From the NCBI RefSeq assembly GCF_037042905.1, contig NC_087250.1, positions 6,946,001-7,010,000 of the forward strand: a stretch of 64,000 bases of DNA, read 5' to 3'. Both the position numbers and the translations under genes were made by a program. This document shows positions 23,303 through 49,574 of the stretch, piece by piece. This DNA comes from Lytechinus pictus (lineage: Eukaryota). The notes under the pieces were generated by a model. The model saw only the letters and a program-made list of their open reading frames with translations, was not told the DNA's origin and made no database searches. Position 1 is the first letter of the stretch. Each line of letters begins with the position of its first letter.

Positions 23303-23999
23303 CAGGTCATTGTTTATTTGTTTGTTCAGGAAGACAAACCAAAGATTTACAAAAATGGGATCTTCTGCCTTCTTGTTTGGCGCCAAGCGTTTAGATTGGA
23401 GAATGGTAATAATAACATGAAGTATGTTAAATGTAGCTAGGGCCCGCTGGTAGAGCAGTTTTATAACTGAAGTGGCTAACCTGGGTAAATAAAACGCCAT
23501 TATCATCTTGATTCTCAAACAGCCATCACTTTTTTATTCGTTGCCTGATTTCTTTTTTAAAGCTTGCAATCTCTAATTTTTCTCTGATATTTATCTCATG
23601 TTGCACCTCAATACCCGTTGAACGTTTTCAACGGGGTCCTCTTACAATCCCAATGGTCCACGAGGCCGAGGGTCCACGAGCCCGAGGGTTCACGAGGACG
23701 AGACCAAATTTTCTCATATTTTTGGTGTATTGCCATTAACTACAACTGATTCGTCAAATTGTGTAGGGTTTAATTTACATTGAAGAATAGGTAGGTTACA
23801 TGTAAGTCGGAAGTCTTCAATTGACATAGACGATTAACATATTGATAGAATGAAATAAAAGATCAGAAAACCGCGGACGTTAACCTTTTCAACCACTGGC
23901 GTAAATCCATGTTGATGGGTGGGGGGATGACATAAATATTTTGGTATTTTTTTGCAATCATGTTTTTAGATATGCAAGGAATTGTCATTGATATGTCCA

Positions 24000-26899: not shown

Positions 26900-27010
26900 A
26901 CTTTGAGCCGGCGTGCAAGACGCTCGTGCAAGCTGTGAACGGTGGACGCTCGTGCAAGCTGTGAACGGTGGTGCAATTTCTCTGGAAATCATTGTCAAAT
27001 CCGTCTAAAA
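26900..27010 (+). other. Predicted leader exon of EnSpm transcripts; supplies the A of the ORF2 ATG
   Basis: Consensus donor AAAA|GTGAGT at 27011; CpG-containing region near the left TIR; 5' boundary is a guess. Confidence 0.6.
26919..26970 (+). repeat. Perfect 26-bp tandem duplication in the presumed promoter/leader of the EnSpm element
   Basis: GACGCTCGTGCAAGCTGTGAACGGTG x2. Confidence 0.9.
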
Positions 27011-27470
27011 GTGAGTATTTTCAGCCGCTTAGCATCTATTCTCTATGTTATCATAATTTTGCCAGAATATTGATCTTTTACCTGCAAATTTTTCCAGTTA
27101 TGAGTAGCGAAACTGCCACGAACGGACGCTGGTTAGAAATTCTGACCAGTCCCACTCCTTCATTTTCGTTGTGGTGCGACTAACGTGAATCGAGACATAA
27201 AAATTACTAATTACCACTTTGACACTTATTTTTCAACTTCTTTAGTTAATTTCCTTCTGGCCAGAGCAGAGAAACTAAAAAATTGAGGAATTTAACAATG
27301 AGAGTGTGCATTTAACGTGGAATCTAAATAAATATGCTACATTATAACTTACATAGCCATATGGCATATGTGTAACTGCAACTGTTAGTCATTGGATGAT
27401 ACATTTTCATGATTTTATAATTTTCGTTCATCAGTTTGTTTATCATTTGACCAGAACGGTAATTATTGTC

Positions 27471-29945
27471 ATGTTTCCTCAACCTTTGCCATTTCGATGC
27501 CCATTGTGTGGTATCCATTTACGGTCTCTGCAAAGACTGCTAAGTCATGTAGGCGCAGTTCATCAGCATGAGCCCAACCTTTATATCACATGCAATATAC
27601 AGGGTTGCGTACAAGGGTTTAGCAAATTCCATTCCTATCGATCACATATGTATAGAAAGCATCGATTATTCCTTGATCTTGAAGAGAACCCTAACCACTT
27701 AGCCCAGGAAAATGATGAACAGCATTCTGGTGATGAACTTGAAAATTATGGTCACGTGCTTGATGATGTGCAACTGGGAGAAAGAGATCGTAGTTCAAAC
27801 AGGGAAATGCTACAAAAGCATTTGGCAATGTTTGCTCTTAAAACTAGGGAGAAATATAATCTCCCTAGAGTAGTTGTACAAGATATCATGAGTAGTGTAC
27901 GTTCTCTCGTGTCATTTGTAAATGAGTCCCATACAAGTACCACAGATCACGAAGGTCCTTATAATTTTCCTGCATGTCGAGAACCAGAAGATGAACTCAA
28001 TGATCTTACATGTGATACAATCTTTGAGTCGATTGGGTCCGATTTTCTTCTTGAGAAATATTGCAAGGCCAATTTAGGTTTGATAGAATCTCACGAAAAG
28101 ATCTTAGGTGAAGAATTGGTAAATGGTCGGCCGGTCAAACATACAATGCAGTATGTTCCCATTCTTGAGGTGTTAAAACAATACCTTGGCCAGGAAGATG
28201 TATGGGCTAGTATGAATGCCAACTTCATGGAGGTTTCTGATCCTGATATATTAGCAGGATATAAAGCTGGGGCTCATTTCCAGAGTAGTGAATTTTACTC
28301 TGCCCATCCACATGCATTGAGGATTGTGTTGTACACTGACGAGTTCGAAATTGTCAACCCATTGGGGGCAAAACGTGGTCAGCAAAAGTTGCTTGCAGTG
28401 TACTACATGGTGGAAAATATTGAGGCTCAATATCGATCAACCTTGTCAAATATCCATCTTGCTCTCCTTGTTAGGAACAAAATCGCTCAAAAATATGGAT
28501 ATGAAGGGATACTTAAACCCCTCATCACTGACCTAAAGATTCTGGAAAAAGATGGCATCTTCATAAATGTGAATGGCACAACGCATCACCGCCTTGGTTC
28601 TGTCATTGCAATGTGTGGTGACAATCTCTCGGCTCATGCTGTTGGTGGGTTTTCCAGTTGTTTCAATTCTGGGCGTATTTGTAGGCACTGTATGGCATTG
28701 AAACCTGAGATCTGCACAAAATTTGAAGAAAGTCAGTTTGTTCTCCGAACCACAGAAGTACATGCATATCATTTAAATGCCATTAAAGCAGACAGTCACA
28801 ATTGTTCTGTTTATGGTGTTTATCGTCCATGTGTTCTCGATGAATTGCGATATTTTGATGTTACAAAGTGTTTACCCCCTGATCCCATGCATGATCTGCT
28901 TGAGGGAGTTGTCCATCATGTGATAAGAGTTGTCCTCAAAGAGTTATTGACACAACGATGTTTGAATTTTTCCAGTAGTAAACTGCAGAAGAAAATGGAA
29001 GAATTTAAATATGGTAGAAATGATGCAATGAGCAAGCCCGTTGTAATTCAGGCCAAAAATGTGAAGCACAATGAGCCCAATATAGTTGGTTCTGCGTCAC
29101 AGAAACTATGCTTGTTCAGGCTATTGCCTTTTTTGATAGGTGAATTTGTGCCTGAAGATGCAGATATATGGGAGCTTTATCTTTCTTGCAGAGAGATTGT
29201 GGATATTTGCCTCTCACCCATTGTAAAGAAATCATGGCTTCCATATCTGCAGCAAGAGGTAATCGATCTAAGTGAATTGTTTGCAAAATATTCACAAGAT
29301 CAATATCCTTGCAAACTTCATTATTTGATCCATTACCACAGACATCTTTCAGACTTTGGACCTCTTAGAAACTTTTGGTGTATGAGATTTGAATCTAAGC
29401 ACCAATATTTCAAGAATCTATCGTCTGTGGTCCGTAACTTTAGAAATGTTGCCTTAACCCTGACAACACGTCATCAGTCTCTCCAATGTTGGCAAATGAA
29501 TGCAGGGTCATTTTTCCAGCAGCAAGAGAGTGCTCTTAGTAATTGCAGACAGATTTCAGTGCTTAAACTGCCTCGTGCTCTCCAAAGAGTTTTGACTGAA
29601 ATGAGTCTTGTCCACGAAGGCAATTTGTGGAAGACAAATTCTGTGCAAGTAAATTCCATGACTTATCAAGATGATGATGTTATCATCATAGATATAAAGC
29701 ATGAAGAAATTCCTGTCTTTGGGAAGGTTAAGCATATTTTACAATGTGACACACATTGGTATATATGCATCAAGGAGTTTGATACGTGCAGATTTAACAG
29801 GCATCTTCATGCATATGAAATTGGTGTAACAGAAAGATGGAGTGTGATGAAGGCAGGACCAAGAAGGGATTTCCAGAGTCTTAGTCTTTATGAGATAGAT
29901 GACAAGTGCATGGTATCGTTGAAACATAGACCTTTGTTGTTGTAA
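27471..29945 (+). CDS. EnSpm/CACTA-type DDE transposase with two N-terminal C2H2 zinc fingers (824 aa from the second Met; ORF open from 27396)
   Basis: CPLC..H...H and CNIQGC..H...H fingers; YTDEFEIVNPLG (D1), MCGDNL (D2), CRHC, DPMHDLLEG, KLHYLIH, WCMRFESKH (E) are CMC signature motifs; no stops or frameshifts. Confidence 0.92.
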   Translation: MFPQPLPFRCPLCGIHLRSLQRLLSHVGAVHQHEPNLYITCNIQGCVQGFSKFHSYRSHMYRKHRLFLDLEENPNHLAQENDEQHSGDELENYGHVLDDVQLGERDRSSNREMLQKHLAMFALKTREKYNLPRVVVQDIMSSVRSLVSFVNESHTSTTDHEGPYNFPACREPEDELNDLTCDTIFESIGSDFLLEKYCKANLGLIESHEKILGEELVNGRPVKHTMQYVPILEVLKQYLGQEDVWASMNANFMEVSDPDILAGYKAGAHFQSSEFYSAHPHALRIVLYTDEFEIVNPLGAKRGQQKLLAVYYMVENIEAQYRSTLSNIHLALLVRNKIAQKYGYEGILKPLITDLKILEKDGIFINVNGTTHHRLGSVIAMCGDNLSAHAVGGFSSCFNSGRICRHCMALKPEICTKFEESQFVLRTTEVHAYHLNAIKADSHNCSVYGVYRPCVLDELRYFDVTKCLPPDPMHDLLEGVVHHVIRVVLKELLTQRCLNFSSSKLQKKMEEFKYGRNDAMSKPVVIQAKNVKHNEPNIVGSASQKLCLFRLLPFLIGEFVPEDADIWELYLSCREIVDICLSPIVKKSWLPYLQQEVIDLSELFAKYSQDQYPCKLHYLIHYHRHLSDFGPLRNFWCMRFESKHQYFKNLSSVVRNFRNVALTLTTRHQSLQCWQMNAGSFFQQQESALSNCRQISVLKLPRALQRVLTEMSLVHEGNLWKTNSVQVNSMTYQDDDVIIIDIKHEEIPVFGKVKHILQCDTHWYICIKEFDTCRFNRHLHAYEIGVTERWSVMKAGPRRDFQSLSLYEIDDKCMVSLKHRPLLL

Positions 29946-31013
29946 GGAAAATTGAATCTTGCCCTCTATTAACCTATTTTCAGCATTTCATGCAATTATT
30001 GCTATTTTTGTGGTGTGTTCAGAAAACAGTAGAGGTCCTGTGCTGTCCAGTTTCTTTTTAGGTTTCTAGTAGTTTTTTTTTTCTCTCCTTCTTTATATAC
30101 TTTTTCGTTTATCTCATACATGTGTCATTTGTCTCTGACAAAGGTTCTGCTAGGACTGACTGCTCAGGCTCTTTTACTTCGTGTTTTTCCAATTAACATA
30201 TATTGTATTTTGTGGTTCTATAATGGCTACAATTTAAATGCTCATCTCACCTAGCAAAGAAGATTTTTTTTTAATAGTCTAGATACTGAGTCTGAATAAG
30301 TATCTAACATATTTTCCAATGCGTTCAAGTAGTTTTGCTACTCTCTAAATGGTAAATTAACAATTGAATGAATAAATTAATGTATATATAGAGAGAGATG
30401 TAGGTTGATTATACAGCCACTATCATGGCAATTTTGGGGTGAGAGTGCATCGACCCAGCTTGTCAGTTGGTCATCTCTAAGCCGGCTAAAAGGTATGTAT
30501 AATCCTCTCTGAATGTCAGTGTGATACGATTTTGATGTTGATAGTGTGAAATTCACAAATTTGTCATGAATAGTGGAGGTGTCGTGGTCTAGATGTGAAT
30601 TCCTGGGACTTTCTGGCAAGAAATTTTACTACATCTGCCACTTTCACCCAGGTGCTATTTGGGGACCAGAAAAAAACTTACCTGCACGGGCTTAAAGGCT
30701 CGCTCCGGCCAAGAAATATCTTGCTTTGATTAGAAGCAGAAAAATCATACGAATGGATTTTTTCTTCTGTCTCAAAGACGGGGGAAGGTGGGGGAAGGGG
30801 GAGTAGATAGAGGAAGTAGCATTTCATGAAATAACCCTTCTCATGGGATATTACATTCTATGGCAGATATTTCACAATCAACCATAGATACAATTCTTTT
30901 GCGTGGCAACAGAGATCACAATATTTCTGGTTATTTTCTCAAGTGGGCGAGACACAATATTGCTAATGCCTTGTTATTCTAATAATATTATAATAATAAT
31001 ATTGTTATTATTA

Positions 31014-31057
<44 letters not shown>

Positions 31058-31231
31058 GTTAGCAGTGTTATTTATTGATAATTACTGTCATTGTTCATGG
31101 CTACTCTATATAATAAGTGCAGTACAACAAACAATAATACTTCTCAGATATTTTGCGCACTGTTTTGCTTCAACAATACACCCAATCAAGACAATCAATG
31201 ACATATCGTGCATATTTCTTTCTTCCTTTAG

Positions 31232-31517
31232 TGTTGCAGTATCATGTTTCTTGTGGGACTTCAAAGAAGCAGGTTATCATTGAAGAAAATGCCACAATTG
31301 ATGACTTGAGGGTGAAGATTGCCTCCAAATTTAACATGAGGAGACCCGACAGCCTGCAGGTCTTCAATAAAGACTTTGGTGACTGGCTGGACCTGGAAGA
31401 AGAGGATGAACTTCCTCCAACAATGTCAAGGGTGAAGGTTTTGGATGACCCAAACGAGGACACAGAAGACAAAGCGAGTTCTGATATCCATGAAGACAGG
31501 GAGGTCCCATCAAGACA
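31232..31517 (+). CDS. EnSpm ORF2 (SAMD3-like accessory protein) exon 2, PB1/ubiquitin-like N-terminus
   Basis: Pyrimidine tract + AG at 31230-31231; LQYHVSCGTSKKQVII...LQVFNKDFGDWLDL; donor CA|GTAGGT, phase 2. Confidence 0.78.
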
Positions 31518-31814
31518 GTAGGTTATTTTTTGTCTGTTCTGTATGCATATTATGTTGACGTTATCCGCATATATTGTTCATCTTTTCCATTTTAATGCGT
31601 GAGGCAAACGCCTGGAGTAGTAAATGTCATAGACTTATATTTTTCCTCATGTTTCTTTTAATCGGATTGTAATTTATTCACTCAATGATTTATTTCTATT
31701 ATTGTAAATCAATTAAGCATTTGGCTGATTTTTATATACACGAGATGTTGTTATTGCCATTAATATTATTAGTATTATTATCATTATAATTGTTATCATC
31801 ATCTTTTTGCGCAG

Positions 31815-32012
31815 GACTTCAGTCGCTTCCACATGTCCTCAGACGCTGACATCTGAAGGAGCAAGGAGCAGCTTTTTTGTAAATTTTAAAGTGCCTGAAA
31901 TGCCCCACGATGTGCAAAAACTCTTAAATGACAACAACAAGGCTGTTCTGGAAAGGAAGTGGAGGAGAAAAATTGTGTCGCATCTGTATGACAACATGGT
32001 TCAAGTGGCAGT
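31815..32012 (+). CDS. EnSpm ORF2 exon 3
   Basis: TTTTTGCGCAG| acceptor, GT|GTAAGT donor; FKVPEMPHDV...RRKIVSHLYDNM; phases match neighbours. Confidence 0.8.
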
Positions 32013-32606
32013 GTAAGTTTGCGTTAAAATTTGTCTTTCTCCTCAGTGAGTTTTCATTATTAGGACATATATTGGCTCAATCAGCGCCCGAACCCTACAA
32101 TAATCTATAATAAACCATATAAAGCTTATTATAACCCTACAATATTAAGTCTGTATTGAACAAAATATATATTGCTTGGTTTGTGTACATATTCAAACAT
32201 TTGTATCATTATTATACATGTATACGGGCAATTCCGTAAACTGATCAACCTTTTGTACGTCCGACCTCACTTTTCTGCTATTTTACTTTGCTATTTCACT
32301 ATTTGGGCCATCATCATGAAAGACCATTACACCGAGTTTGCAAATCAGATATGAATGATGGAAAGTTAATTTATGAAGGCCCTGTATGCAGGGGATCAGC
32401 TGTACATAATTTATAGATTTACCAATTTTTTTGTATTGCTTTGATGTACCCTCAAAAATTTAATCGAATCTTGTGCATGTACATTATTATGTTTGGTTCC
32501 TCTCCTCTCTCCCTCTTTCTCTCTCTTTCTTTCTATCTGTGTGTGTGTTTCTGTCTTCTCTTCTTTCTTTCTCTCTCTCTCTCCCTCTCTCTCTCTTTAA
32601 CTACAG

Positions 32607-32700
32607 GTACCCTCATTCATGGGAGTACAATGCTGTGTGCAGTGCACTGATTAACAAGCACCCGATTTTGAAGGATCGAACCATAAATGGTTCGGGATAT
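32607..32700 (+). CDS. EnSpm ORF2 exon 4
   Basis: (CT)n..CTACAG| acceptor, |GTAAGT donor; YPHSWEYNAVCSALINKHPILKDRTINGSGY. Confidence 0.82.
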
Positions 32701-33013
32701 GTAAGTTTTACATGCGCGCATGTGTGTGAGAATAATGATAATGATTCTTGAGATGATAACATATAATAAGTAGTAAATTGTAGTGAACAAATATGCAATA
32801 TTGAAACATTTTTTGTTCTTTTTTTTTCCTTACACATCTTGTGTTTCCTTACACATCTTGTGTTTGCGAGTCTGATACCACTTCAAAATGGAGGAAAAAT
32901 ACCATGAAAAAGATCGATTTTGCACAGATTTGACTGGAACTTGATTGTGTATTATGTGTCAGAATATATAACTTGTTAAATACCTTTTCAATCATTCCAC
33001 TTCATTACGTTAA

Positions 33014-33522
33014 AGCCCAAGTATAGTTTTGGTAAGGATTAAGAAATGTGAATTTTTGGGATATCTACCATGACATATAGTTTTTATACACATTTTAAGA
33101 CCATAGCATTTTTTCTACGAGCTAATTCTTTTGGAAATTTGAATTTGACCGTTAAATCGTATTTAGCGCCCTCTATTGGTTGTAACAATAATTTGCTTCT
33201 TATCGGGCATATACAAAGTTATTTCCAAGACTTGATTAAAGCATGATAAAAAGGAATACACAAAGAATAAATTCTGAAATTTTCATCCAATTCTATGCAT
33301 GAGAAGTTGTCCTTTATCAAGAAAGAAAATATTGAATTCGCATCGGGGGACACGACGCTGAAATATTTTGCACATTTTAGGTTATAACTTTTCCAAAACT
33401 TGTTCATTTTTTGCACAATCTTTTGTACAACATGTTCATGATATCATGTTTCATTTTATACCGATTTGAAGTCAAAATTTGGTGATAAAAAATTTCGCTT
33501 TTACCAAAACTGTACTTGGCCT
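33014..33522. mobile_element. Kolobok-type MITE in an ORF2 intron
   Basis: TTAA|AGCCCAAGTATAGTTTTGGTAA ... TTACCAAAACTGTACTTGGCCT|TTAA. Confidence 0.75.
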
Positions 33523-33526
33523 TTAA

Positions 33527-34281
33527 CCCTAAATAGGCTGGGCTATTTTGAGAGTTCTCAGAGCCGGGGGGGGGGGGGCCTCCCAGGCCCCCCCCCCCCC
33601 CCCCTTCTGTTCTCGGCCGTCGATCGCGCTATCGCCGCGAAAATTTGCACGCGAGTAGAGCATCATGTAAACTACAAATTACCATCGTCAGATTTTCGAA
33701 AAAATACACCGTTTATTTTTAATTAATTAATTATGCTAATTTATGCATAAAAAGGCATTTTGTTCTCTAAATCACAAAATACTAGTGATAGCAAACTAAT
33801 TTTTGGTCTAAGTATTCCTGGTATCATATCTAACAATTCCACATAAAAAAAATTGCACTGACAAATTGAATTTCTTTTTTTTTTTTTTTTTTTCAATTTC
33901 TTGTGTATTTCATTGTTTTTTCGACCTTTTTTTTCTATTGTTTTTTGGGCACAATTTATTACAAATATTTTTTCAAGTATAATTATGCTAATATGAATTG
34001 ATTTCTGCCACTGAAAGCAAAAACATGAATTATTATGTGAATTAATTGAAAAAACACAATTTGCATTGACTTTGTACACAAAAACACGTTTTGGAGCAGT
34101 TTTGAGGCTGACATGCGTGTATAAAATGTTACGTAATTTCGTAACGGTAAGTCCGATTATCATGAAAACGGTTTTAAAAGTTGCGGGAAACTTGAAAGAA
34201 AAAAGTCAGCGAGCCGCGTTATCAGAAATTTTCGTGCAGCGAAACGATCGCGAAATCCGTCGGCCCCCGGCCTAGTTAGGG
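33527..34281. mobile_element. piggyBac-type MITE in an ORF2 intron
   Basis: TTAA|CCCTAAATAGGCTGGG ... CCCGGCCTAGTTAGGG|TTAA. Confidence 0.8.
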
Positions 34282-34369
34282 TTAATGCAGGGTTAATTAT
34301 TAAAATAACCAGGTTTTTTTTTTTAATATGCTGTTATGCTTCATGTCTCACATTATTTTTGCATTGTAG

Positions 34370-34549
34370 GATACAATAAAAGAGTCGCTGAGGACAAAGT
34401 TTAAACACGAGAGAGGGATTCGAACACCATCAACTGATGTAGCCAGGAGGAGGGAGTTGTATGGCCGCAATGGCCCCAGAAAGCGTGCTGAGGACAACGT
34501 GGAAAAGGCCCCATCTCCTGTTAAAAGGAAGAAGCGGGATAGCATTGAG
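34370..34549 (+). CDS. EnSpm ORF2 exon 5 (basic, NLS-like)
   Basis: TTGTAG| acceptor, GAG|GTAAAG donor; DTIKESLRTKFKHER...PVKRKKRDSIE; 180 bp, phase 0/0. Confidence 0.8.
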
Positions 34550-34782
34550 GTAAAGCAACCGTATACTTTTTTAGAGTTATCTGTAGCATCTATCTGGCAT
34601 TTCAATGTTATGACTTATTGTGAAAGAAGCCATCTATTAGATTGTTGGTTGTAATACATGTGTCGATTTATATATAGAAACAAATGAAATTTCAATCTTG
34701 TGTGCCGATGATTTTTCATGTATTCAAGAACTCATGTGACGTTTTGTTTAAAATTAATGTGCTCTTTTTTTTTTTTGTTTAG

Positions 34783-34983
34783 ACCTCACATGGGGGAGAA
34801 GACGAAGCCAGCATCCAAAGACACATCGCGTCATTAAAAGATCTGGCATCCAAGAGGGGCGCAGACCCGTCAATTATTCAGGACAAAATGAAGCGGACGC
34901 GAAGTCATAGACTTTGTTTTATTCAAGCCAATGCTTTGCAGGATGTTCTGAATGAATATCCGATACTGAGGTTTGAAAAACAG
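34783..34983 (+). CDS. EnSpm ORF2 exon 6
   Basis: T-tract..TTTAG| acceptor, CAG|GTTAGT donor; GEDEASIQRHI...KMKRTRSHRL...VLNEYPIL; 201 bp. Confidence 0.82.
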
Positions 34984-35515
34984 GTTAGTACTAAATGTAT
35001 TTCTTTCTTTGATAACATTAAAACTACTACGTACACATCAATCTCTTCGCGCACCAAATCAGATCTTAACGCAACATTGATTATTATTTACTATTAAAAT
35101 TGTACATGTACAAAAAAATATTGAAACTGCAGAGTTATAAATATCGGCTCCTATTTTTCGGAATAAATGGATGAAAATGCAATAGATTATAGATACTGCA
35201 CATCTTCGACCAAGTTAACTACTTTATTCATGTGTGATGTTCGGTTTTCATTTAAGAAATATGGAGGATATTTTGATGAAACTTAATGAAAATTAATCAG
35301 CGCGGATTAATCAAATGAAATCCATGAATTTGATTGGATAAAAAGCATCGTCTCTTACTCTTTAATAAATATTAGTGTCGGAGAATGAGGCTTGTATTGT
35401 TGCTGCAACAAGCCTCATGAAATGCCCTCCAGGCGCTAGTTATAAGTGCGCTATTGATTACCTTCTATGAACATTGGCTCATTTTGTTTAATTTGTGTCC
35501 ATCCATTCTTTTTAG

Positions 35516-35696
35516 CTAATACGTGAGCTTCAAAATACGTATGGGGCAAAGGAAATAGCAGCCGCTATTGCCGAATCGGTTACAGCTAGTGGAGAAGTGA
35601 TTCTCCGAGAAGGATTGAAGGTGCCAGCAGCACAAGAAGTGATCGAGCAATATCAGGACAAAGTTGATGGTGCGACTACAGACAAGCAGAAGAAAG
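35516..35696 (+). CDS. EnSpm ORF2 exon 7
   Basis: TTTTTAG| acceptor, AAG|GTATTT donor; LIRELQNTYG...TTDKQKK; open frame, phase 0/1. Confidence 0.75.
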
Positions 35697-36083
35697 GTAT
35701 TTTGTGCCTCATACCTCCAATTTATTTTATGGTGTAGAGCAGGGGTTCTCAAACTACGGCCCGCGGGCCGGATCCGGCCCGCAGAGCTTCTCTATCCGGC
35801 CCGCGAGACTCTGCTGGGTTTTTTTAATCACTAAAGTCACGATATGAAACAAAGCTCAATATGATTACATTGTGTATCCATGTAGACCTAACCGTAATAA
35901 AAGTAATGGCAGTCAAATTAATTTGACATTTAAACAAAGTTTAGTGGAGTCTTTTCTGTCTGTTCGATCTACTTATTAGATGACCAGCGCTGTTCTCACC
36001 ATGTTTGGATCTACATACAGGTGTGAAAGTGCATTTTCCACAAGGAACATTTTAAAGAACTAACTCATACCGAAGTACCTTGA

Positions 36084-36232
36084 CAGGGGCCGCGGAACGG
36101 TTTTCAAAGTGGGGGGGGGGCGCTGGCCATGCAAAAAATCACAATCTTATGGTCATTTTTACGTTTATATAAATGGTTTTGGAAAAATGTGGGGGGCTGA
36201 AGCCCCCCCCCCCCCCGCTTCCGCGGCCCCTG
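36084..36232. mobile_element. CAGGGGCC-terminus MITE with 5-bp TSD, nested
   Basis: CTTGA|CAGGGGCCGCGGAA...TTCCGCGGCCCCTG|CTTGA; same family as 24637-24816. Confidence 0.78.
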
Positions 36233-36318
36233 CTTGACAAGTGAACATTTGCACCCGTGCCTTCGTCTGGTAATTACACCTTTTGTGCCAAGGTTCAAGC
36301 AACTTATTGCTGACAGAC

Positions 36319-36589
36319 CACTAGCGTACCTACGGGGGGGGGGGGGGCAGGTCGGCACTCTGCCCCCCCTGACGAGCCACAACCCATACAAAAGACATAT
36401 ACCTGCCCCCCCCTGACGAGCTTAAAAGACCTTTTTTGCCCCCCTGACGAGCTTGAAGACCTTTATTGCCCCCCCCCCCCCTGATGAGCTTGAAGACCTT
36501 TTTTTTCTTTTTTTTTTTTTTTTTTTGCTTGTCAAATTTTTTGGCGGCCGATTTTGCCCCCCCTGTGGAAAATCCTAGGTACGCCACTG
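36319..36589. mobile_element. hAT MITE, nested
   Basis: CACTAGCGTACCTA...TAGGTACGCCACTG; 8-bp TSD TGACAGAC; internal GCCCCCCCTGACGAG repeats. Confidence 0.82.
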
Positions 36590-37429
36590 TGACAGACTGT
36601 CACTTTTCCCATATTGAAAGTGACTAGAAGACTGACATCATTGTTAGAGTCTACAACAGACGTACTCTATTATTCATTCTACTTTGACTGCAAAAATATT
36701 GATACTTCAAGACATAATCTGTCTTCCCAATACCAGTTATGTATAGGTAAAATCTAGATTCCTTCTAACAAAGTGCTGCAATTTTGTTATCATTAATATT
36801 GACTCTCGCTGTATTTTGAAATCTTTTCTAATTTTGCCTGCGTTCTGTATGAAACTGTTATAAATTTGTTGGAATAAAAGCTCCCAAAATAAGGGCCAGA
36901 TTATAGAGCATCTAGGACCCCGACCTCAAGGGTCTTTGCGCTTCGCGCACATTTTTGTCTAAGTATCCACTTCAGCCTGGCCCTTTTAGGTTTACTTGGA
37001 GTCTCATCTGGCCCTTCAAAGAAAAAGTTTGAGAACCCCTGGTGTAGAGGATAGTACCAAAAGCTATGGAATTATTTGCGATATTTACATTTATTTCGGC
37101 TTACATATAAAAAGGAATTGGTACTGCTAAAGTCACTGTCGTCCATGCCTTCAAAATCAGTTAATTGCATGAGGAGGAACATAACTATCCCACATTAGTT
37201 GTCATAGTCTTTGTTTATTATTCTTATCATAATTTATTATGGTGCTCAATTTCCCTGTCATCACCCTTTCAGAGAAGAGAAGAAAAAATGGACGTGTTTC
37301 CTTGACAATTAACATGGATATTTCGTTATCTTTCCTTCATGATTATGATCTAGAAGAAATAGCTTCCAAAAGCGTAAAACTGAAATACAATGTATTTACA
37401 TGTATCTATTTTGTTTGGTTTTGTTTTAG

Positions 37430-37506
37430 ATTTACTGGTGGCATTGTCATGCTTGCTGTTTCCTTTGATATTTGGGGAAAAGGACTCCATGTACACTATA
37501 AACAAG
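37430..37506 (+). CDS. EnSpm ORF2 exon 8
   Basis: TTTTAG| acceptor, AAG|GTAACA donor; (D)LLVALSCLLFPLIFGEKDSMYTINK; phase 1/0 bridges exons 7 and 9. Confidence 0.72.
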
Positions 37507-37973
37507 GTAACATTCAGATTCCGCATTTAGTATCTACTTTCCTTGGGATTGATTAAATTTTGCATTTGTCGGCTTTATCTAATTGTCATTCCAGGTCATT
37601 CCAGGCTATCATTTTTTTATGTTAACAATTCTAATTTAAGATAGACACCAATTGCAGGGACTGCAGAACCGGGGGCGGGGGGAGGGGGGGTGGGTGCTCG
37701 GGGCTGCAGCCACCACACTTTTTAAAAATTGCGTGCAAGCCTATGGCAATGTGTAAAAATCGTTATCCACAGGCCCCGCACTCTCAGCCCCCCCCCCCCC
37801 CCCACTCTTCAAAAACGTTCCATGGTGCCTGAAATGTACCATCAATAATACAGTTTAACCTCTTTATAAAGATCACTGATGCATGTATATTAAAGTAATG
37901 TTTTTGGTCAGAGTTCTTTGCATTGATTTGTTTTCCCTCCAAGGGAATAATGAATATCGAGAATCTTTTTTAA

Positions 37974-38717
37974 CCCTATTTTAACTGGGCTTTTTGAGAC
38001 CAAGTTTATACTTCAGATCTCGGCCGTGGATCGCGCAATCGCCGCAAAATTTTGCACACGGATAGAGCAAAGTGTAAACTACAAGACTGTATGGATTGAT
38101 TTTCCGAAAATTCCTAATTTCTATTTTTAAATAATTAATTATGCAAATTTATGCATGAAATCACACTTTCTGCTCTATTTCCCTCAATAAAGCACCTATA
38201 AGGCTAATTTTTGGTGTGAATATTCTTTATAATATCCCTCATGACACAACTTGAAAAAAATTTGGTATGACAATTTATTTCTTATGTTTTTTATTGATTT
38301 ATGAATTTCTTATGTATTTCTTTGTTTTTTAGACCTTGTGTTTTCTATTGTTTTTTCTATGAAATTTATTGCAGGACATTTTTGAAGCATTTTTGTGCTG
38401 AAATAAATTAGTTTCAGCCCATCAAACAAAAAATAACTACATCTTTATGGATTCTGACTGAAATCACAATTTACATTGACTTTGCACACAAAATCACGTT
38501 TTTGAGCCATTTTCGGTCTGACATGCATGTACAAAAAGTGGTGCGGCAACATAACCACATACCCGATTTTTGCGAAAACAGTCTTAAAAGTTGCGCAAGA
38601 CGTTAAAGAAAAAAGTCAGCGAGTCTCGTGGTGAAAAAATTTTGCGCGGCTGAGTGATCGCGAAATTTGTCGAGGGGGGGGTCAAATTGACCCCCCCCCT
38701 CCCCAGTTGGAATAGGG
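37974..38717. mobile_element. piggyBac-type MITE in an ORF2 intron (related to 33527-34281)
   Basis: TTAA|CCCTATTTTAACTGGG ... CCCAGTTGGAATAGGG|TTAA. Confidence 0.8.
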
Positions 38718-38775
38718 TTAAAGATTTATATGTTTTTATATTTCCGATTGGCTTTCTCTTTCTCAATTTTGTCAG

Positions 38776-39048
38776 GAACCCCAGAGCCCTACTCCTACCC
38801 TAGTGATATCAGGGAACCCCTTTGAATGTCGTGATTTAGCCATATTCATGGACGGGATAGAAGTTTGTCGAGCATCAGATCTCACATCCGGGTTTGTTGC
38901 AACATTCTCAAGTTTTTATGTGTTTGGGGTCCAGTACCCACAACGTGGAAAGAGGACCCTACAGCTATACCAGAAATTTTTTGCAGGACTGGATGATGGA
39001 AGTCCCCTACCACCCAGAGTCCAGCGATTTCTTAACAGCCTTGTTTAG
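38776..39048 (+). CDS. EnSpm ORF2 last exon (SAMD3-like C-terminus)
   Basis: TTTTGTCAG| acceptor; PTPTLVISG...IFMDG...FSSFYVFGVQYP...TLQLYQKFFAGL; TAG stop; joined CDS = 1491 nt (496 aa). Confidence 0.82.
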   Translation, partial: EPQSPTPTLVISGNPFECRDLAIFMDGIEVCRASDLTSGFVATFSSFYVFGVQYPQRGKRTLQLYQKFFAGLDDGSPLPPRVQRFLNSLV

Positions 39049-39159
39049 ACTGATTTATTTCTGGTTGGAAATTCCGCCGTAAATTTCTATTATTTTGCCC
39101 TAAAATTAAAGACTGTTCTGTGTACATGAGAAGATTTACACTCTCTTGCTACATTTGCT

Positions 39160-40735
39160 GAGATGAGGCAAAGTTTTGTATCAACTCAAACATTTTAATT
39201 TATTACGATTGCTTCATTTATTTTATGTGCTGAAATGAGGCCAAGTTTTGTTTCCTGTATCAACATGATCAACTCAAACTTTTTTTATTACACCTGCTTC
39301 ATTTATTTTATGTGCTGCAATGAGGCAAAGTTTTGTATCAACTCAAACATTTTAATTTATTACACCTGCTTAATTTATTTTATGTGCTGCAATGAGGCAA
39401 AGTTTTGTATCAACTCAAACATTTTAATTTATTACACTTGCTACATTAATGTGCTGAAATGAGGCAAAGTTTTGTATCAACTCAAACATTTTAATTTATT
39501 ACACTTGCTACATTAATGTGCTGAAATGAGGTCAAGTTTTGTTTTAAAGGGGTACTAGCCCCTGACATTATCGTGCTCTCATTGAATAAAGAAAAATCAG
39601 ATGAACAAACTGTAAAAAATTGATAAAAATCAGACAACTCGCTCAAAAGTTATGAATTTTCAAAGTCACCGAGATTTGACGATCACTGCCGCTCATGGGG
39701 ATCAGTGCGATCGGCAAAACCGACGGAATCTGTGACGTCATGTCGGACAACTCCTCATTCACTTTGTACATAGAATATTTAAAAATTGATCAATGTCAAA
39801 TTTAGAGTGAGGTTGCAGCATGAATCTTTTCAAAATACAAGCAAAAACAATATAGAAATGCTATACCGCAACCAAAAAATGGTATTTTGTTGACTTTTCC
39901 GAGAAAAAGGAGAAAATGTGAAGTTTGGTGTACAGAGTGAATGAGGAGTTGTCCGACGTGACGTCACAGATTCCGTCGAATTTGCCGATCGCACGGATGC
40001 CCATGAGCGGCAGTGATCGTCAAATCTCTGTGACTTTGAAAATTCATAACCTTTGAACGGGTTGTCCGATTTTGCCCAAATTTTCAGTTTGTTCATCTGG
40101 ATTTTCTTCATATCCTGAGGTGAGGATAATTCCAGGGGTTGGTTTCCCTTTAATTTATTACATTTGCTACATTTATTTCATGTTTTGTGTGCTGAAATGA
40201 GGCTAAGTTTTGTTTCCTACATCAACTCAAACGTTTTAATTTATTGTATGTGCTGAAATGAGGCCAAGTTTTGTTTCCTCTATCAACTCAAACATTTTAA
40301 TTTATTACGATTGCTTCATTTATTTTATGTGCTGAAATGAGGCCAAGTTTTGTTTCCTGTATCAACTCAAACATTTTAATTTATTACACCTCCTTCATTT
40401 ATTTTATGTGCTGCAATGAGGCAAAGTTTTTTATCAACTCAAACATTTTAATTCTTTACGATTGATTCATTTATTTTATGTGCTGAAATGAGGCCAAGTT
40501 TTGTTTCCTGTATCAACTCAAACATTTTAATTTATTACACCTCCTTCATTTATTTTATGTGCTGCAATGAGGCAAAGTTTTTTATCAACTCAAACATTTT
40601 AATTTTTTACGATTGATTCATTTATTTTATGTGCTGAAATGAAGTCAAGTTTTTTATCCTATATCAACTCAAAAGTATTAATTTGTTACATTTGCTACAT
40701 TTTAATGTGCTGAAACAAGGCAAAGTTTTGTTGCA
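39160..40735 (+). repeat. Tandem ~58-70-bp repeat array in the EnSpm 3' region
   Basis: Recurrent ATCAACTCAAACATTTTAATTTATTAC...GTGCTG(A/C)AATGAGGC(A/C)AAGTTTTG units, split by a MITE. Confidence 0.85.
39548..40149. mobile_element. Kolobok-type MITE
   Basis: TTAA|AGGGGTACTAGCCCCTG ... CAGGGGTTGGTTTCCCT|TTAA with long inverted arms. Confidence 0.8.
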
Positions 40736-42109
40736 AACGTCAATATAACTATTTAGTGGGTTCTTAAAATCGTTACAATATGAGTTTCTGGTCACATGGT
40801 CAAGGTCAAAGGTTACCAGAGGTCATCAAACTTTGGTATGTCAAGCCAAAAACATCAAAAACTTAACTTGGAGGTTATATTTTAGAAATGTCAACGTAGG
40901 TTTAAAAATTTTTTGTCTCTTTCCATGAAACTTTGTAATTAGGGTCATTAAGCATCACCAATCGTTCCGTATGCATTAGTAGTGTGGGTGGAGTCATTGT
41001 TGCCATGGTAACCATGGTTATATTGAAAAAAAATTAAGATTGTCTAGTAAGCATTCTACAGACCAAAATTTTCATCCAATCTTATTCAAATTTGGTGTGG
41101 ACGTGTATTATGGCAAGTGGAAGTAAGCTGTCGATTCTTGGATATGGGCAGGGTCATTGTTGCCATGGTAACAATTTTTATAAAGAAATAATGAAGATTT
41201 CAGGGTGAGCACTCTACAGGCCAGATGTTTCATCTGCTCATATTCTAATTTGGTGTTGATGTGTAATATTAAGAAGCCTATTGAATTAGGGTGTGGGCAT
41301 AATCATTATTGCCATGGTAATCATGGTTTTTCAGATTTCTTTTAGTCATTGTTTTTGTCCAGTCACATTCAAATTTGGTGTTGGGACTGTATTATGGTAG
41401 GAGTATCATGTGATATTTCCTGATTTCTTTGTAAAAGTGCTGCTGCCTGAAGCAGGCAAAACCACCAGAGGCACTCCACTTGTTTTTTCTTAGATTGTAC
41501 TTTTTAATATAAACTTTTGTCCATATATTTCCTCCAAAAACAGATACCAAAACTTTTAAGATACCGATGCGATTATTTTGTACCTTTTCAATGAATGAGA
41601 AAATATTTCTTTCTCATCATTTCTCGCAATAGGTGACACTTGGTTCAGCTGGTTTGTTATTTACATCACAATGTATAAGCTTATAGATATTCCACACGTC
41701 AGATTGCCTTGTATGTCCACAAAGAGTGTGAGGCTACATCCTTTTTGCTTTACATAATTATTATTGCTCGTCTGAAGGCATGTTTACAGATTTTGATTAA
41801 GTCTGTGCCAAGAAATGGTGTTTAATATGTATGATGTATTAAATGTGTTGAACTCCAAATGTATATTCACTACTCTCCTTTCTAGTACATGTACTGTAAT
41901 AGCTCCTCATTGGCATATACATATACATGTGTCACAATTAGGACCTATTGCAGCTCATTTGAAAATATTATTATAACTATTATTATTATTATTGTTGTTG
42001 TTGTTGTTTGTTAGTTGGTTTGTTTTTATTGTGTGTGTGTGTGTTGTGCGTGTTAGCGTGTGTGTGTGCTGTGGGTGGGTAGGTGGGTGTGTACGTGTGT
42101 GGTTGTGTG

Positions 42110-42660
42110 TATTATTTGTACCAGCAAGGGAATGAAATTGTACCAACGGGGTGAAAAATTGCACCCCAAACATATAAAATTGAACCAAAAAGGGTATAAA
42201 ATCGTACCACAAAGGGTATGAAAATGTACCTAAGGGGTCTGAAATTTGAACCCTACATGGAGGACATTGTACCAAAAGGGTGTAAAATTGTACAAAAGGG
42301 GTATAAAATTATACCGTAAAGGGTATAACATTGTCTCAAAAAGGGTGCAAAATTGTACCACATGGGTAAAAACTTGTACCAAATGGGGTATAAAATTATA
42401 CCAAAGGGGTATTATATTGCACCGGAAATGAATGAAAAAGTGTATAAATTGTACGAAAAGGGTAAAGATTTCTACCTAAGGGGTATACAATTTTACCAAA
42501 AGGGGTACAAATTTGTACCCCAGGAGTACCCGGGGGTACAATATTGTACCCCATCATGGGGTACAAACTTGTACCCCAACTTTGGGGTACAACTTTGAAC
42601 CCTATAGGGTGCAGCCGGTGTTGCATTGGATTGTACCCCTAGGGGTACAAATTTGTACCC
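42110..42660. repeat. Right subterminal repeat region of the EnSpm element
   Basis: Dense direct and inverted GGG(G)TA(C/T)AAA / TTGTACC motifs matching the TIR core. Confidence 0.85.
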
Positions 42661-43781
42661 TAATTTCTCTGTGTGTATGTTACATTACATAAGAAATATT
42701 TTTATCATAACAACTTCATGAAACATAATTTGCCCAGGGCCTGCGTCTTCATAGTTCCTGGTGCTCGCATTGTCTGTTTAACGAGATATATAATCCTGTT
42801 GTACTAAAACATCCCGTTTTCAAGTCAATATAAACTAAATATATTTCCTAGCACTTTCTTTTACATGATTAAAAAGGTGATTGCCCAATGTTAAGGTCTT
42901 CGTATATATAAAAACATTTCCTTCCGTGATTACGTTCGCATTAGTGGATTGGTGAGATATGTCTGCTCTTCATGAATTCCTAAAATCAGTCCTTGAAATG
43001 TCCCTTCTTCTGATCTGAATATCAAAAATTTTCAGCTCGCGCTTCGCGCTCGCATCATTTGGTTAATGAAATACGTATGGTCCTAGTTAATTCCTACAAA
43101 GAAACCTTAGAATGCCCCACTTCAGGTCTTAATTATCTAAATTATCTAAATTTTCAGCTTGCGCTTCACGCTCGCAATATTTGATTAGTGAGATGCGTAT
43201 GATACTCATGATTGCAATGAGTACAAAAAGTGTTTCATGTGTTCAGATGTAATTCTAATAAAATCAGCAAGCGCTTGGCACTTGCATTAGATGACTATGG
43301 TGAGATATGCATACTCTTAATGGATTCCTAAAATATATTCCTTAAAATCTCGCTGTTTGGGGTCAAAATATACGAAAATTTCAGCTCGCGCTTCGCGCTC
43401 GCATTGTTTAGCGAGACAGGTACCCATCATGATTACACAAATTTGATTATAATGTCCCTTCGCGCTCGCATTATTTGATCAGTGAGATACATATCCGTTC
43501 AATGACATTGTCCTTAAAATGTCTCTATTAGGTCAGAATAACTAGCAACCGAGCGCGCTTCGCGCGCTCACTCAGTGATTCGAAAATTTTGCTGGTGCCC
43601 CCACAATGCCGTGACCCACGGTATGCCACTGTGGACATATCAATTACAATTCATTGCATATCTAAAAACATGATAACAAAAAAAAAGCCAAAATATTTCA
43701 GTCATCCCCCCACCCCTCAACACGGATTTACGCCAGTGCTCTGTAGTATTAGTAGATATCTGAAAACGTATATTTTAAGAC

Positions 43782-49356: not shown

Positions 49357-49574
49357 TGTGACGACCTCAACTGACCCACTGATGGTATCTGTCAATAAAT
49401 GGAAAGTTGACATAAAACAAATGAAGTTGGCCAAGAAGGACCAGGGGAGGATTTGCAGCAAGAGCTGTATCACAGTCATTTCCATAGGGTTCATTTTCAT
49501 GAGAAAGAACTTAGAGTCACAGATTGATGATAGAATCATAGATATTTTGAAAAGTAAAGAATCGATGACATTAA

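What the first reader, a model, noticed from the sequence alone, without database searches (positions are those of the whole stretch)
31232..39048. Intact 9-exon SAMD3-like accessory gene inside an animal CACTA transposon
Seen: eight GT-AG introns with fully compatible phases give an uninterrupted 496-aa protein, which the ORF track shows only as fragments. It has an N-terminal PB1/ubiquitin-like segment (LQVFNKDFGDWLDL), a helical YP...Y..V..ALI.KHP.LKD..G.GY block, a basic NLS-like patch (KRKKR) and a C-terminal FYVFGVQYP...TL...Q motif. From recollection these motifs match the 'sterile alpha motif domain-containing protein 3-like' models common in fish and invertebrate genomes. Inference: this is the TnpA-equivalent (end-binding or anti-silencing partner), and host SAMD3-like genes may derive from such transposon ORF2s. 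Its function is not established.
Basis: partly seen in the sequence, partly recalled or inferred. Interest (0 to 1): 0.7.

Follow-up and report, generated by a model that had tools for sequence, protein, structure and literature searches.

The report
Sea-urchin transposon carries SAMD3-like gene
A young jumping gene of a sea urchin carries, besides its cut-and-paste enzyme, a spliced and transcribed second gene whose protein is a clear relative of SAMD3, a mammalian immune-cell protein of unknown function, which hints that SAMD3 began as a transposon helper gene.

Summary
A spliced contig in a public run and an identical 496-aa NCBI model ("uncharacterized protein", Lytechinus pictus) confirm the gene. 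Two corrections: only 8 exons and 7 introns lie in 31232-39048, and the ninth exon is an upstream 5' exon. The ATG is split (A|TG), and the exon that supplies the A was not seen.

The gene lies inside a 16.15-kb DNA transposon (window 26523-42677). There are four copies at 99.3-99.9% identity, with 24-bp inverted ends, TA flanks and GGGTACA repeats at both ends. An intronless 824-aa transposase of a distant CACTA/Plavaka type lies upstream.

Residues 119-489 align with human SAMD3 residues 146-507 (BLASTP 2e-26). The N-terminus is a ubiquitin-like beta-grasp, not a SAM domain. The 370-aa core matches no solved fold.

All six divergent transposase loci examined (26-31% identity) carry the same gene downstream on the same strand, so it is an integral accessory gene and not cargo.

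Not shown: that it works like TnpA by binding the end repeats as an oligomer, and that vertebrate SAMD3 descends from such a gene. My paper searches found no link between SAMD3 and transposons.

The parts
26523..42677 (+). Whole transposon, 16,155 bp. It is the stretch shared by four genomic copies (C1, C2, C3, C6).
   Evidence: Megablast pieces are 99.34-99.92% identical and stop at these ends in all three other copies. The 5' terminus has exactly 4 matches in the assembly.
26523..26546 (+). Left terminal inverted repeat TACACACAGAAAAATTAGGGTACA. It may be TA plus CACACAG..., with TA as a 2-bp target duplication.
   Evidence: 24 bp with one mismatch to the right end. All four copies have TA at both ends and no longer direct repeat outside.
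42654..42677 (-). Right terminal inverted repeat.
26540..26645 (.). Left subterminal GGGTACA-type repeats (3 exact, 4 with the looser pattern).
42116..42660 (.). Right subterminal repeat array. It holds 10 exact GGGTACA, mostly as inverted pairs 11 bp apart, within a degenerate 21-25-bp tandem array.
   Evidence: 13 of 14 window matches lie in the two element ends, and 0 of 100 shuffles reach 14.
26900..27010 (+). Candidate non-coding first exon ending ...CTAAAA|gtgagt. If joined to 31232 it would complete the ATG. This is inferred only, and its 5' limit is unknown.
   Evidence: Best of all A|GT donors between 26523 and 31231 (score 4.87, next 2.1). Sequence. No read evidence.
27471..29945 (+). 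Intronless transposase gene, 824 aa. It has two N-terminal C2H2-like zinc fingers, a candidate D289/D383/E477 acidic triad read off the invariant columns of alignment A3, and a C-terminal PKHH...YWCMRFE.KH block.
   Evidence: ORF. Intact in 3 of 4 copies. At least 55 matches in the genome. Conserved columns. Sub-threshold Plavaka, Transposase_21 and DUF4218 matches. Nearest named Atlas clusters are Plavaka.
30084..30492 (+). 5' non-coding exon of the transcript seen in run X1. The contig starts here, so the true 5' end is unknown.
   Evidence: joint 30490>31230 (GT..AG with the cut 2 further right). Stops in all frames.
31232..31517 (+). Coding exon 1: the TG of the split start codon plus the ubiquitin-like domain.
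31815..32012 (+). Coding exon 2.
32607..32700 (+). Coding exon 3 (the YP..Y..V..ALI.KHP.LKD block).
   Evidence: The joint 32700>34370 is listed.
34370..34549 (+). Coding exon 4 (the KFKHER block with invariant R208, and the basic KRKKR patch).
34783..34983 (+). Coding exon 5.
35516..35696 (+). Coding exon 6.
37430..37506 (+). Coding exon 7.
38776..39048 (+). Coding exon 8 with the stop codon. The 3' UTR runs to about 39192.

Best explanation
Window 26523-42677 is a young, probably still mobile cut-and-paste DNA transposon of a sea urchin. It belongs to a distant animal branch of the CACTA/Plavaka (CMC) group.

It has two genes on one strand. The first is an intronless 824-aa zinc-finger DDE transposase. 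The second, downstream, is a multi-exon gene for a 496-aa protein.

The protein has four parts:
- a ubiquitin/PB1-like beta-grasp (residues 1-77);
- a basic helical domain (110-225, pI 9.8) followed by a KRKKR patch;
- a second helical domain (261-395);
- a small alpha/beta domain (396-496).
Residues 119-489 are homologous to the whole non-SAM part of vertebrate SAMD3.

The gene is an ancestral, integral part of this transposon group, not cargo.

Mechanism, by inference: the protein enters the nucleus and oligomerises head to tail through its N-terminal module. That module is replaced in relatives by SAM or PB1, which also polymerise. The basic helical domain binds the arrays of GGGTACA palindromes at the element's ends. 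This brings the ends together and recruits or regulates the transposase, as TnpA does for maize En/Spm.

Vertebrate SAMD3 would then be a domesticated descendant that swapped the N-terminal module for SAM.

My odds: integral accessory gene about 0.9; SAMD3 homology about 0.98; DNA or end binding about 0.35; descent from transposon to host about 0.5.
For: SHOWN
- Four copies share 26523-42677 at 99.3-99.9% identity and all contain the gene.
- The coding sequence is whole in all four, with 0-1 base differences.
- A spliced contig covers all exons. No intronless copy exists in the assembly, so the contig comes from RNA.
- The translation equals NCBI model P0001.
- Exhaustive phmmer found 368 representatives at E<=1e-3, among them bat SAMD3 at 3.6e-19. 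BLASTP to a human SAMD3 sequence gave 2e-26 over 386 columns.
- A family HMM finds collinear exons downstream and on the strand of the transposase in 6 of 6 loci fetched around transposases only 26-31% identical. That is 12 hits, with none upstream or on the other strand, and none elsewhere in the 64-kb window.
- In two of those families, perfect 21- and 26-bp TIRs (TA|CACTC...) enclose both genes.
- 6 of the 150 listed accessory-family representatives are gene-model chimeras, always in the order transposase then accessory.
- The AF2 model scores pLDDT 87.5, and its N-terminal beta-grasp matches at VIA Z 9.7-8.2.
- 13 of 14 GGGTACA sites in the window lie in the element's two ends.

INFERRED
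- N-terminal modules vary across the family: SAM in 9 of 141 representatives, weak PB1 in 2, and CIDE-N in 21% of one Atlas cluster.
- The only invariant residue is an arginine and no catalytic-looking column is conserved. This fits a binding protein, not an enzyme.
- The helical-1 domain is basic.
Against: - No DNA-binding fold was recognised. The core's best Foldseek E is 0.31 and its best VIA Z is 5.3, below the tool's chance level; a BEN domain scores only Z 3.9.
- The core has no Pfam family and no detected similarity to plant TnpA-type families.
- The transposase has its own N-terminal zinc fingers, which could bind the repeats instead.
- The transcript I saw lacks the ATG of the 496-aa form. 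If only that form is made, translation would start within the beta-grasp.
- RNA raw reads are sparse, at depth 3 or less with about 6% of each run read.
- The four copies are too alike for their intact frames to show selection.
- The species of the chimeric models and of most family members are unknown (unavailable). Linkage outside this genome is therefore only suggested.
- The tree is unrooted, and the branch joining SAMD3 to the window's group has only 83% SH-aLRT.
Confidence: 0.5

Rival explanations
1. The accessory protein is integral to the element but acts on the host, not on the element's DNA. It could be an adaptor or anti-silencing factor that uses its ubiquitin/PB1-like head and helical body to engage host chromatin, ubiquitin-type or signalling proteins. 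The transposase zinc fingers would then read the subterminal repeats.
For: - No DNA-binding fold was found in the core.
- The transposase has two conserved C2H2-like fingers.
- The N-terminal exon has a weak match to the Crinkler header Ubl (E 8.9e-4).
- Passages I read in bioRxiv 10.1101/2025.02.11.637652 describe Plavaka and VANDAL accessory genes as chromatin-directed.
- Mammalian SAMD3 is studied as an immune-cell marker (PMC11787060: search listing and two passages).
Against: - No catalytic signature and no known interaction motif.
- A basic helical domain with an NLS-like patch, together with dense palindromic end repeats, fits DNA binding at least as well.
Confidence: 0.27
2. The gene is a host gene of the SAMD3 family, captured long ago by an ancestor of these elements. 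It is carried as a passenger with no role in transposition.
For: - SAMD3 is a conserved single-lineage gene from turtle and platypus to human.
- Transposons of the CACTA type are known to capture host genes (recalled).
- The tree has no root.
Against: - The gene is kept in the same place and orientation in 7 of 7 transposase lineages that are only 26-31% identical. A functionless passenger would not survive that long.
- Transposase-linked chimeric models fall in two major clades of the family tree.
Confidence: 0.08
3. The gene is an ordinary host gene into which, or around which, transposon sequence happens to lie. It is not part of any mobile unit.
For: NCBI annotates it as a normal protein-coding locus.
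Against: All four genomic copies of the gene lie inside the same TIR-bounded 16-kb unit at unrelated sites on four chromosomes-scale contigs.
Confidence: 0.01

Closest known systems
[quoted passage not shown]
   Same: The whole region after the N-terminal module is homologous. P0001 residues 119-489 align with human residues 146-507 at 24% identity, BLASTP 2e-26. The lengths are similar (496 against 520 aa), and both have an N-terminal protein-protein module followed by the core.
   Different: The N-terminal module here is a ubiquitin/PB1-like beta-grasp, not SAM. The gene is multicopy and sits inside a transposon, and is not a single conserved host locus.
TnpA of maize En/Spm (the second protein of CACTA elements). 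This comparison is recalled from the literature and not tested by sequence.
   Same: It is a many-exon second gene on the same strand as the transposase, in an element with short TIRs and arrays of short subterminal repeats in direct and inverted order. A shared 5' exon with the transposase is possible (donor at 27010).
   Different: No sequence or Pfam similarity was found. The gene lies downstream of the transposase ORF instead of enclosing it. Termini are CACACAG with TA flanks, not CACTA with 3-bp duplications. Binding to the repeats is untested.
Plavaka (EnSpm/CACTA-superfamily) elements with accessory genes: TET/JBP in basidiomycetes and PAG1-3 in red algae (bioRxiv 10.1101/2025.02.11.637652; abstract and passages read)
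   Same: They are large elements (17-19 kb there, 16 kb here) with a DDE transposase plus conserved accessory genes and nearby inverted-repeat arrays. The transposase's nearest named relatives are Plavaka clusters.
   Different: The accessory protein family is different: no methylase, SET, ParB-like or oxygenase domain. The host is an animal.
Crinkler (CR) effector N-terminal header domain, Pfam PF20147
   Same: It is a ubiquitin-like beta-grasp at the N-terminus of a modular protein. The match is weak: 20.4 bits, E 8.9e-4, for the exon alone.
   Different: The score is below the curated cut-off of 24.6 bits, and only 16.6 bits in the full protein. There is no signal peptide or toxin domain, and the C-terminal part is the SAMD3 core.

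Membership tests
SAMD3 family (core homology) | Sequence homology across the roughly 370-aa region that follows the N-terminal module | tested here: met
   phmmer E 3.6e-19 to bat SAMD3 P0033. BLASTP 2e-26 over 386 columns to the human sequence P0177.
SAMD3 proper (orthologue) | N-terminal SAM domain | tested here: not met
   No SAM match in Pfam at E<=5. The model shows a beta-grasp at residues 1-77. SAM is present in 9 of 141 other family representatives.
SAMD3 proper (orthologue) | Single conserved host locus | tested here: not met
   Four near-identical copies lie inside a transposon on four contigs.
CACTA/EnSpm-Mirage-Chapaev (CMC) transposons, including Plavaka | Transposase of the Transposase_21 / DUF4218 / Plavaka type | tested here: inconclusive
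   All matches are below Pfam's cut-offs: Plavaka E 0.0022; Transposase_21 in 2 of 7 family members (best 5.1e-4); DUF4218 in 2 of 7 and in chimera P0085 (2.8e-5). Atlas feature search: Plavaka clusters score 0.96 and 0.92.
CACTA/EnSpm-Mirage-Chapaev (CMC) transposons, including Plavaka | Termini 5'-CACTA/CACTG... | tested here: inconclusive
   The window family has (TA)CACACAG. Two sister families have (TA)CACTC.
CACTA/EnSpm-Mirage-Chapaev (CMC) transposons, including Plavaka | Target-site duplication of 2-3 bp (the lengths are recalled) | tested here: inconclusive
   TA lies on both sides in 4 of 4 copies and in the two sister families, with no longer direct repeat. No empty site was seen, so TA may belong to the TIR.
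CACTA/EnSpm-Mirage-Chapaev (CMC) transposons, including Plavaka | Arrays of short subterminal repeats | tested here: met
TnpA-like end-binding accessory proteins | Sequence-specific binding to the element's subterminal repeats | not testable with these tools
   This needs EMSA or DAP-seq. The only indirect pointers are a basic helical domain and palindromic repeat arrays.
TnpA-like end-binding accessory proteins | Produced with the transposase from one transcription unit by alternative splicing | tested here: inconclusive
   The contig seen starts at 30084, downstream of the transposase. The 496-aa model needs another 5' exon ending in A; the candidate is at 27010 and is not confirmed.
Ubiquitin-like / PB1 beta-grasp fold | Beta-grasp topology | tested here: met
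   The model has pLDDT above 88 over residues 1-70. VIA Z is 9.7 (talin F0F1), 9.4 (ISG15) and 9.0-9.1 (NBR1, PKC-iota/Par6 PB1), at rmsd 1.9-2.3 over 67-78 residues. Foldseek E is only 0.04.
Crinkler N-terminal domain PF20147 | Score at or above Pfam's gathering cut-off (24.6 bits) | tested here: not met
   20.4 bits for the exon alone and 16.6 bits for the full protein.

The most novel reading that the evidence does not exclude
Vertebrate SAMD3, a conserved NK- and T-cell gene with no known molecular function, is a domesticated copy of the accessory ('second') protein of an ancient metazoan CACTA/Plavaka-like transposon. The family is a modular end-binding or chromatin-binding factor whose N-terminal polymerising head (Ubl/PB1, SAM, CIDE-N) is interchangeable. 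SAMD3 would then be expected to bind specific DNA or chromatin as an oligomer.
Probability: 0.4. Interest if true: 0.78.

Novelty: new variant of a known kind. Interest (0 to 1): 0.62.

Why it matters
Two-gene CACTA-type transposons are well known from plants, but their second proteins are poorly understood and differ between lineages. This one shows that an animal branch of the group has kept a single accessory gene through deep divergence, and that this gene is homologous to SAMD3.

In the papers I saw, SAMD3 is used only as a marker of NK and CD8 T cells, and its 370-aa core has no assigned domain or fold. A transposon origin gives SAMD3 a concrete, testable biochemical hypothesis: oligomeric binding to nucleic acid or chromatin. 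It would also add a case of domestication of a non-transposase transposon gene.

The four near-identical copies, with intact genes and defined ends, offer a complete two-component system for testing what such accessory proteins do.

Tried and rejected
- The long inverted repeats 23894-24908 / 42702-43738 (CACTG...CAGTG) looked like the element's ends. They lie outside the stretch shared by the four copies and belong to other repeats.
- The in-frame ATG at 31198 and the out-of-frame ATG at 31244 were considered as starts. Both were rejected because the acceptor at 31232 is used.
- Word-based protein searches with the last exon and with P0001 found only the protein itself.
- The look-up of sequencing runs listed no holder on record as RNA. 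Only X1's spliced contig and sparse raw reads were usable.
- Folding two copies of the protein together gave 'no answer', so nothing follows from it.
- Fold searches of the core gave nothing convincing. Foldseek on the PDB gave a best E of 0.31. VIA over 48,161 chains gave a best Z of 5.3. The second look gave a best Z of 5.3, with BEND3 BEN domain at Z 3.9 and homeodomains at Z 3.7-4.3. The core was searched only as a whole 414-residue model, from homologue P0009 and not the window's own protein. Single domains remain untested.
- Pfam on the single exons gave only chance-level matches apart from the Ubl-type ones.
Among them is the C8 locus, where a divergent transposase (8047996-8050410, minus strand) and accessory-like exons (8055992-8062160, minus strand) lie in the opposite order. 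That locus remains unexplained.
- Earlier notes of this scan held nothing on this place or on SAMD3.
- Paper searches: 'SAMD3'+'transposon' gave 6 papers, none relevant by title or abstract. 'SAMD3-like' gave 1 irrelevant paper. 'CACTA'+'sea urchin'+'transposase' and 'EnSpm'+'Strongylocentrotus' gave nothing on this element. Repbase could not be consulted, so an EnSpm entry with this second ORF may exist there.

Full report
WHAT IS THERE

The window is animal DNA. It is G000:C6:6946001-7010000 of an 812-Mb assembly. An identical protein in the database is named as from Lytechinus pictus.

Laying public runs on 27000-39150 gave one 2043-nt contig of run X1 (record 3, depth 25) that skips eight stretches. 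Seven joints are listed: 30490>31230, 31517>31815, 32700>34370, 34547>34781, 34981>35514, 35694>37428 and 37504>38774. All have GT..AG ends. The eighth (32012>32607) was not among the rows shown. I infer it because the nine exons add up to exactly 2043 nt, its borders are GT and AG, and the translation matches the database protein.

X1 is only guessed to be RNA. However, the assembly holds no intronless copy: protein P0001 matches it exon by exon at four places only. A spliced contig therefore has to come from RNA.

Raw RNA reads of three further runs (X13-X15, about 6% of each read) cover exons and transposase thinly, at depth 3 or less and on one strand only.

THE PROTEIN AND ITS START

From 31232 the frame is open to the stop at 39046-39048. 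A search with the last exon returned one protein, P0001: 496 aa, 'uncharacterized protein LOC129258791 isoform X1'. The joined window exons with one A in front translate to it exactly.

But 31232 is a splice acceptor and the start codon is split (A|TG). The X1 contig's upstream exon (30084-30492) ends in G. That transcript reads GTG there, and its first in-frame ATG is at 31336, giving 461 aa that begin inside the N-terminal domain.

The best A|GT donor inside the element lies at 27010, upstream of the transposase (score 4.87 against 2.1 for the next). If used, it would give AAAATG. Together with a good acceptor near 27434, it would mean both genes share a first exon, as in maize En/Spm (recalled). 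No read confirmed this.

Inside 31232-39048 there are 8 exons and 7 introns. The ninth exon is upstream.

THE MOBILE UNIT

The last exon has four 100%-identical matches, on contigs C1, C2, C3 and C6. Megablast of about 28 kb around the three other copies against the window gives pieces of 99.34-99.92% identity. These pieces begin at 26523 and end at 42677/8 in every copy.

The ends are 24-bp inverted repeats (TACACACAGAAAAATTAGGGTACA, one mismatch). All four copies have TA at both borders and no longer direct repeat. TA is therefore either a 2-bp target duplication or part of the repeat.

The first 178 bp occur exactly four times in the assembly, so the family has four full-length copies and no detected short derivatives.

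GGGTACA occurs 14 times in the window, and 13 of those are within 26540-26595 and 42503-42660. The shuffled mean is 5.5, and 0 of 100 shuffles reach 14. At the right end the sites form inverted pairs 11 bp apart inside a degenerate 21-25-bp array from 42116.

The window copy alone has a 1.3-kb insert at 35740-37039, with CAGGGGTTCTCAAAC inverted ends and an 8-bp duplication. It is a hAT-type MITE in an intron.

The accessory coding sequence is whole in all four copies, with 0, 0, 1 and 1 base differences. The transposase ORF is whole in three copies and interrupted by a 435-bp insert in the C1 copy.

The long CACTG...CAGTG inverted repeats at 23894/43738 lie outside the shared unit.

THE TRANSPOSASE

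An 824-aa intronless ORF (27471-29945) has at least 55 matches in the genome. Many are open 840-860-aa frames only 26-32% identical to it.

An alignment of seven members shows two invariant C2H2-like fingers. It also shows invariant acidic residues in the blocks LYxDDFE, GDNLG and MHDxLEG, which I read as a candidate DDE triad, and a PKHH...YWCMRFE.KH block.

Pfam gives only sub-threshold matches, but all point the same way: Plavaka (E 0.0022), Transposase_21 (2 of 7, best 5.1e-4), and DUF4218 (2 of 7; also 2.8e-5 in chimera P0085). The Atlas feature search puts Plavaka-bearing clusters at 0.96 and 0.92, after unnamed chordate and arthropod clusters at 0.99.

Two sister families have perfect 21- and 26-bp TIRs beginning TA|CACTC.

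I file the element as a distant CACTA/Plavaka-like (CMC) transposon, with membership not proven.

IS THE SECOND GENE PART OF THE TRANSPOSON?

I fetched 30 kb around six divergent transposases (C20, C9, C11, C31, C7, C4). I searched all six frames with an HMM built from 46 family members.

All six loci have collinear accessory exons downstream of the transposase and on its strand. There were 12 hits, with i-E from 1e-10 to 2e-3; the three C4 hits are the weakest. None lies upstream or on the other strand, and none lies elsewhere in the 64-kb window.

In C11 and C31 the TIRs enclose both genes, with spans of 13,995 and 21,208 bp.

Among the 150 listed accessory-family representatives, six are gene models whose N-terminal part matches the transposase HMM (E 4e-9 to 4e-65) and whose C-terminal part matches the accessory family. 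The order is always transposase then accessory. Their species are unknown because one search was unavailable.

One locus does not fit simply. On C8 a divergent transposase lies downstream of accessory-like exons. I could not fetch it.

WHAT THE PROTEIN IS

Exhaustive phmmer found 368 cluster representatives at E<=1e-3 and 100 at E<=1e-10. One of them, P0033 (E 3.6e-19), is bat SAMD3. Its relatives run from human to platypus and turtle.

BLASTP of P0001 against a human SAMD3 sequence gave 99 bits, E 2e-26, 24% identity, with residues 119-489 aligned to 146-507. That is all of SAMD3 except its SAM domain and linker. The Atlas independently names the nearest clusters 'SAMD3-like' (0.97).

Pfam finds nothing in P0001 except a sub-threshold Crinkler-header match.

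AlphaFold2 with 46 sequences gave pLDDT 87.5. The model has a beta-grasp (1-77), a disordered acidic linker, a helical domain (110-225), a basic linker with KRKKR, a second helical domain (261-395) and a small alpha/beta domain (396-496). The beta-grasp matches ubiquitin-like and PB1 domains at VIA Z 8.2-9.7.

A second model, of homologue P0009, which lacks the head (pLDDT 87.4), found no convincing solved relative. Foldseek's best E was 0.31 and VIA's best Z was 5.3.

In the 46-sequence alignment the only invariant residue is R208. The near-invariant ones are L, P and R, with no catalytic pattern. Helical domain 1 and the linker are basic (pI 9.8).

Heads differ across the family. SAM occurs in 9 of 141 representatives scanned, and weak PB1 in 2. 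CIDE-N occurs in 21% of one arthropod Atlas cluster. At least 20 of the 150 listed representatives align from the beta-grasp onward.

HOW IT PROBABLY WORKS

Shown: the gene is an integral, transcribed second gene of a transposon lineage, and it is homologous to the SAMD3 core.

Inferred: SAM, PB1 and CIDE-N are all head-to-tail polymerising modules (established knowledge). A head of this kind, plus a basic helical body, an NLS-like patch and dense palindromic repeats at both ends, is the layout expected of a TnpA-like factor. Such a factor would coat the subterminal repeats, pair the ends and recruit or gate the transposase. I give this about 0.35.

The main rival, at about 0.27, is a host-directed adaptor or anti-silencing role, with the transposase fingers reading the repeats. 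Ancient capture of a host gene as a mere passenger is unlikely (0.08), given its retention across lineages only 26-31% identical.

RELATION TO SAMD3

I built a quick maximum-likelihood tree of the core from 75 rows. Another 79 of the 154 candidates were dropped for covering under 260 model positions. The tree puts amniote SAMD3 as one long-branched clade (100%) inside a weakly supported group (83%) that also holds the window protein. Transposase-linked chimeras fall in two major clades.

This fits descent of SAMD3 from the transposon gene family. But the tree is unrooted and most taxa are unknown, so I put the direction at about even odds.

NOVELTY

The gene is annotated but unnamed. My searches of the paper library found nothing linking SAMD3 to transposons, and nothing on this element. 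Repbase could not be checked.

Two-gene CACTA/Plavaka elements are known: En/Spm (recalled) and red-algal PAG genes (passages read). This is therefore a new variant of a known kind, with an unexpected link to a mammalian gene of unknown function.

Noticed in passing
window 35740-37039: A 1.3-kb non-autonomous hAT-like element sits in an intron of the accessory gene. It has inverted ends CAGGGGTTCTCAAAC and an 8-bp duplication GTGTAGAG. It is present only in the window's copy of the transposon.
   Followed up: partly
window 23894-24908 with 42702-43738; also 24950-26511: About 1 kb of inverted repeats (90-99% complementary, outer ends CACTGGCG...) flank the transposon at unequal distances. A separate palindromic stretch (arms 24950-25517 / 25934-26511) lies between them. 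This looks like older foldback or MITE-type repeats into which the 16-kb element inserted.
   Followed up: no
window 33496-33901 and 37556-37961: Two intronic repeat copies in opposite orientation carry long C/G runs. They are by far the most covered places in the RNA runs (depth 50-85 against 3 or less on the exons), with poly-C loose ends and cross-joints between the two copies. This is probably an abundant expressed repeat from elsewhere in the genome.
   Followed up: no
window 39268-40732: Tandem arrays of 61-79-bp units and an inverted pair (39615-39770 / 39929-40084) fill the 3.6 kb between the accessory gene's stop and the right end of the element. No ORF of note was seen there.
   Followed up: partly
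G000:C1:43.01-43.27 Mb and G000:C31:0.21-0.39 Mb: Many copies of different lineages of this transposase family are crowded into two short regions. One is near the end of contig C1, and the C1 copy of the window's element also lies there.
   Followed up: no
G000:C8:8047996-8062160 (minus strand): A divergent transposase (28% identity, open 859-aa frame) lies downstream of accessory-like exons. This is the reverse of the usual order, or it is two adjacent elements. I could not fetch it.
   Followed up: no
G000:C14:4178854-4179660 and G000:C1:39632163-39632345: Accessory-like exons (41-56% identity) have no transposase match nearby in the list. They may be solo or decayed copies, or host-retained genes.
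   Followed up: no
window 48061-49605 (minus strand): A 514-aa open frame with a proline-rich tail lies outside the transposon. It is presumably an exon of a host gene and was not examined.
   Followed up: no
window 13179-13639: A tandem repeat is open in both strands and reads as DIYPP/DKYPP-type pentapeptide repeats on one strand and GGxCPG repeats on the other.
   Followed up: no
protein P0034 (1877 aa): One unnamed relative matches the beta-grasp head of P0001 in six separate stretches, so it is a protein with repeated Ubl heads.
   Followed up: no
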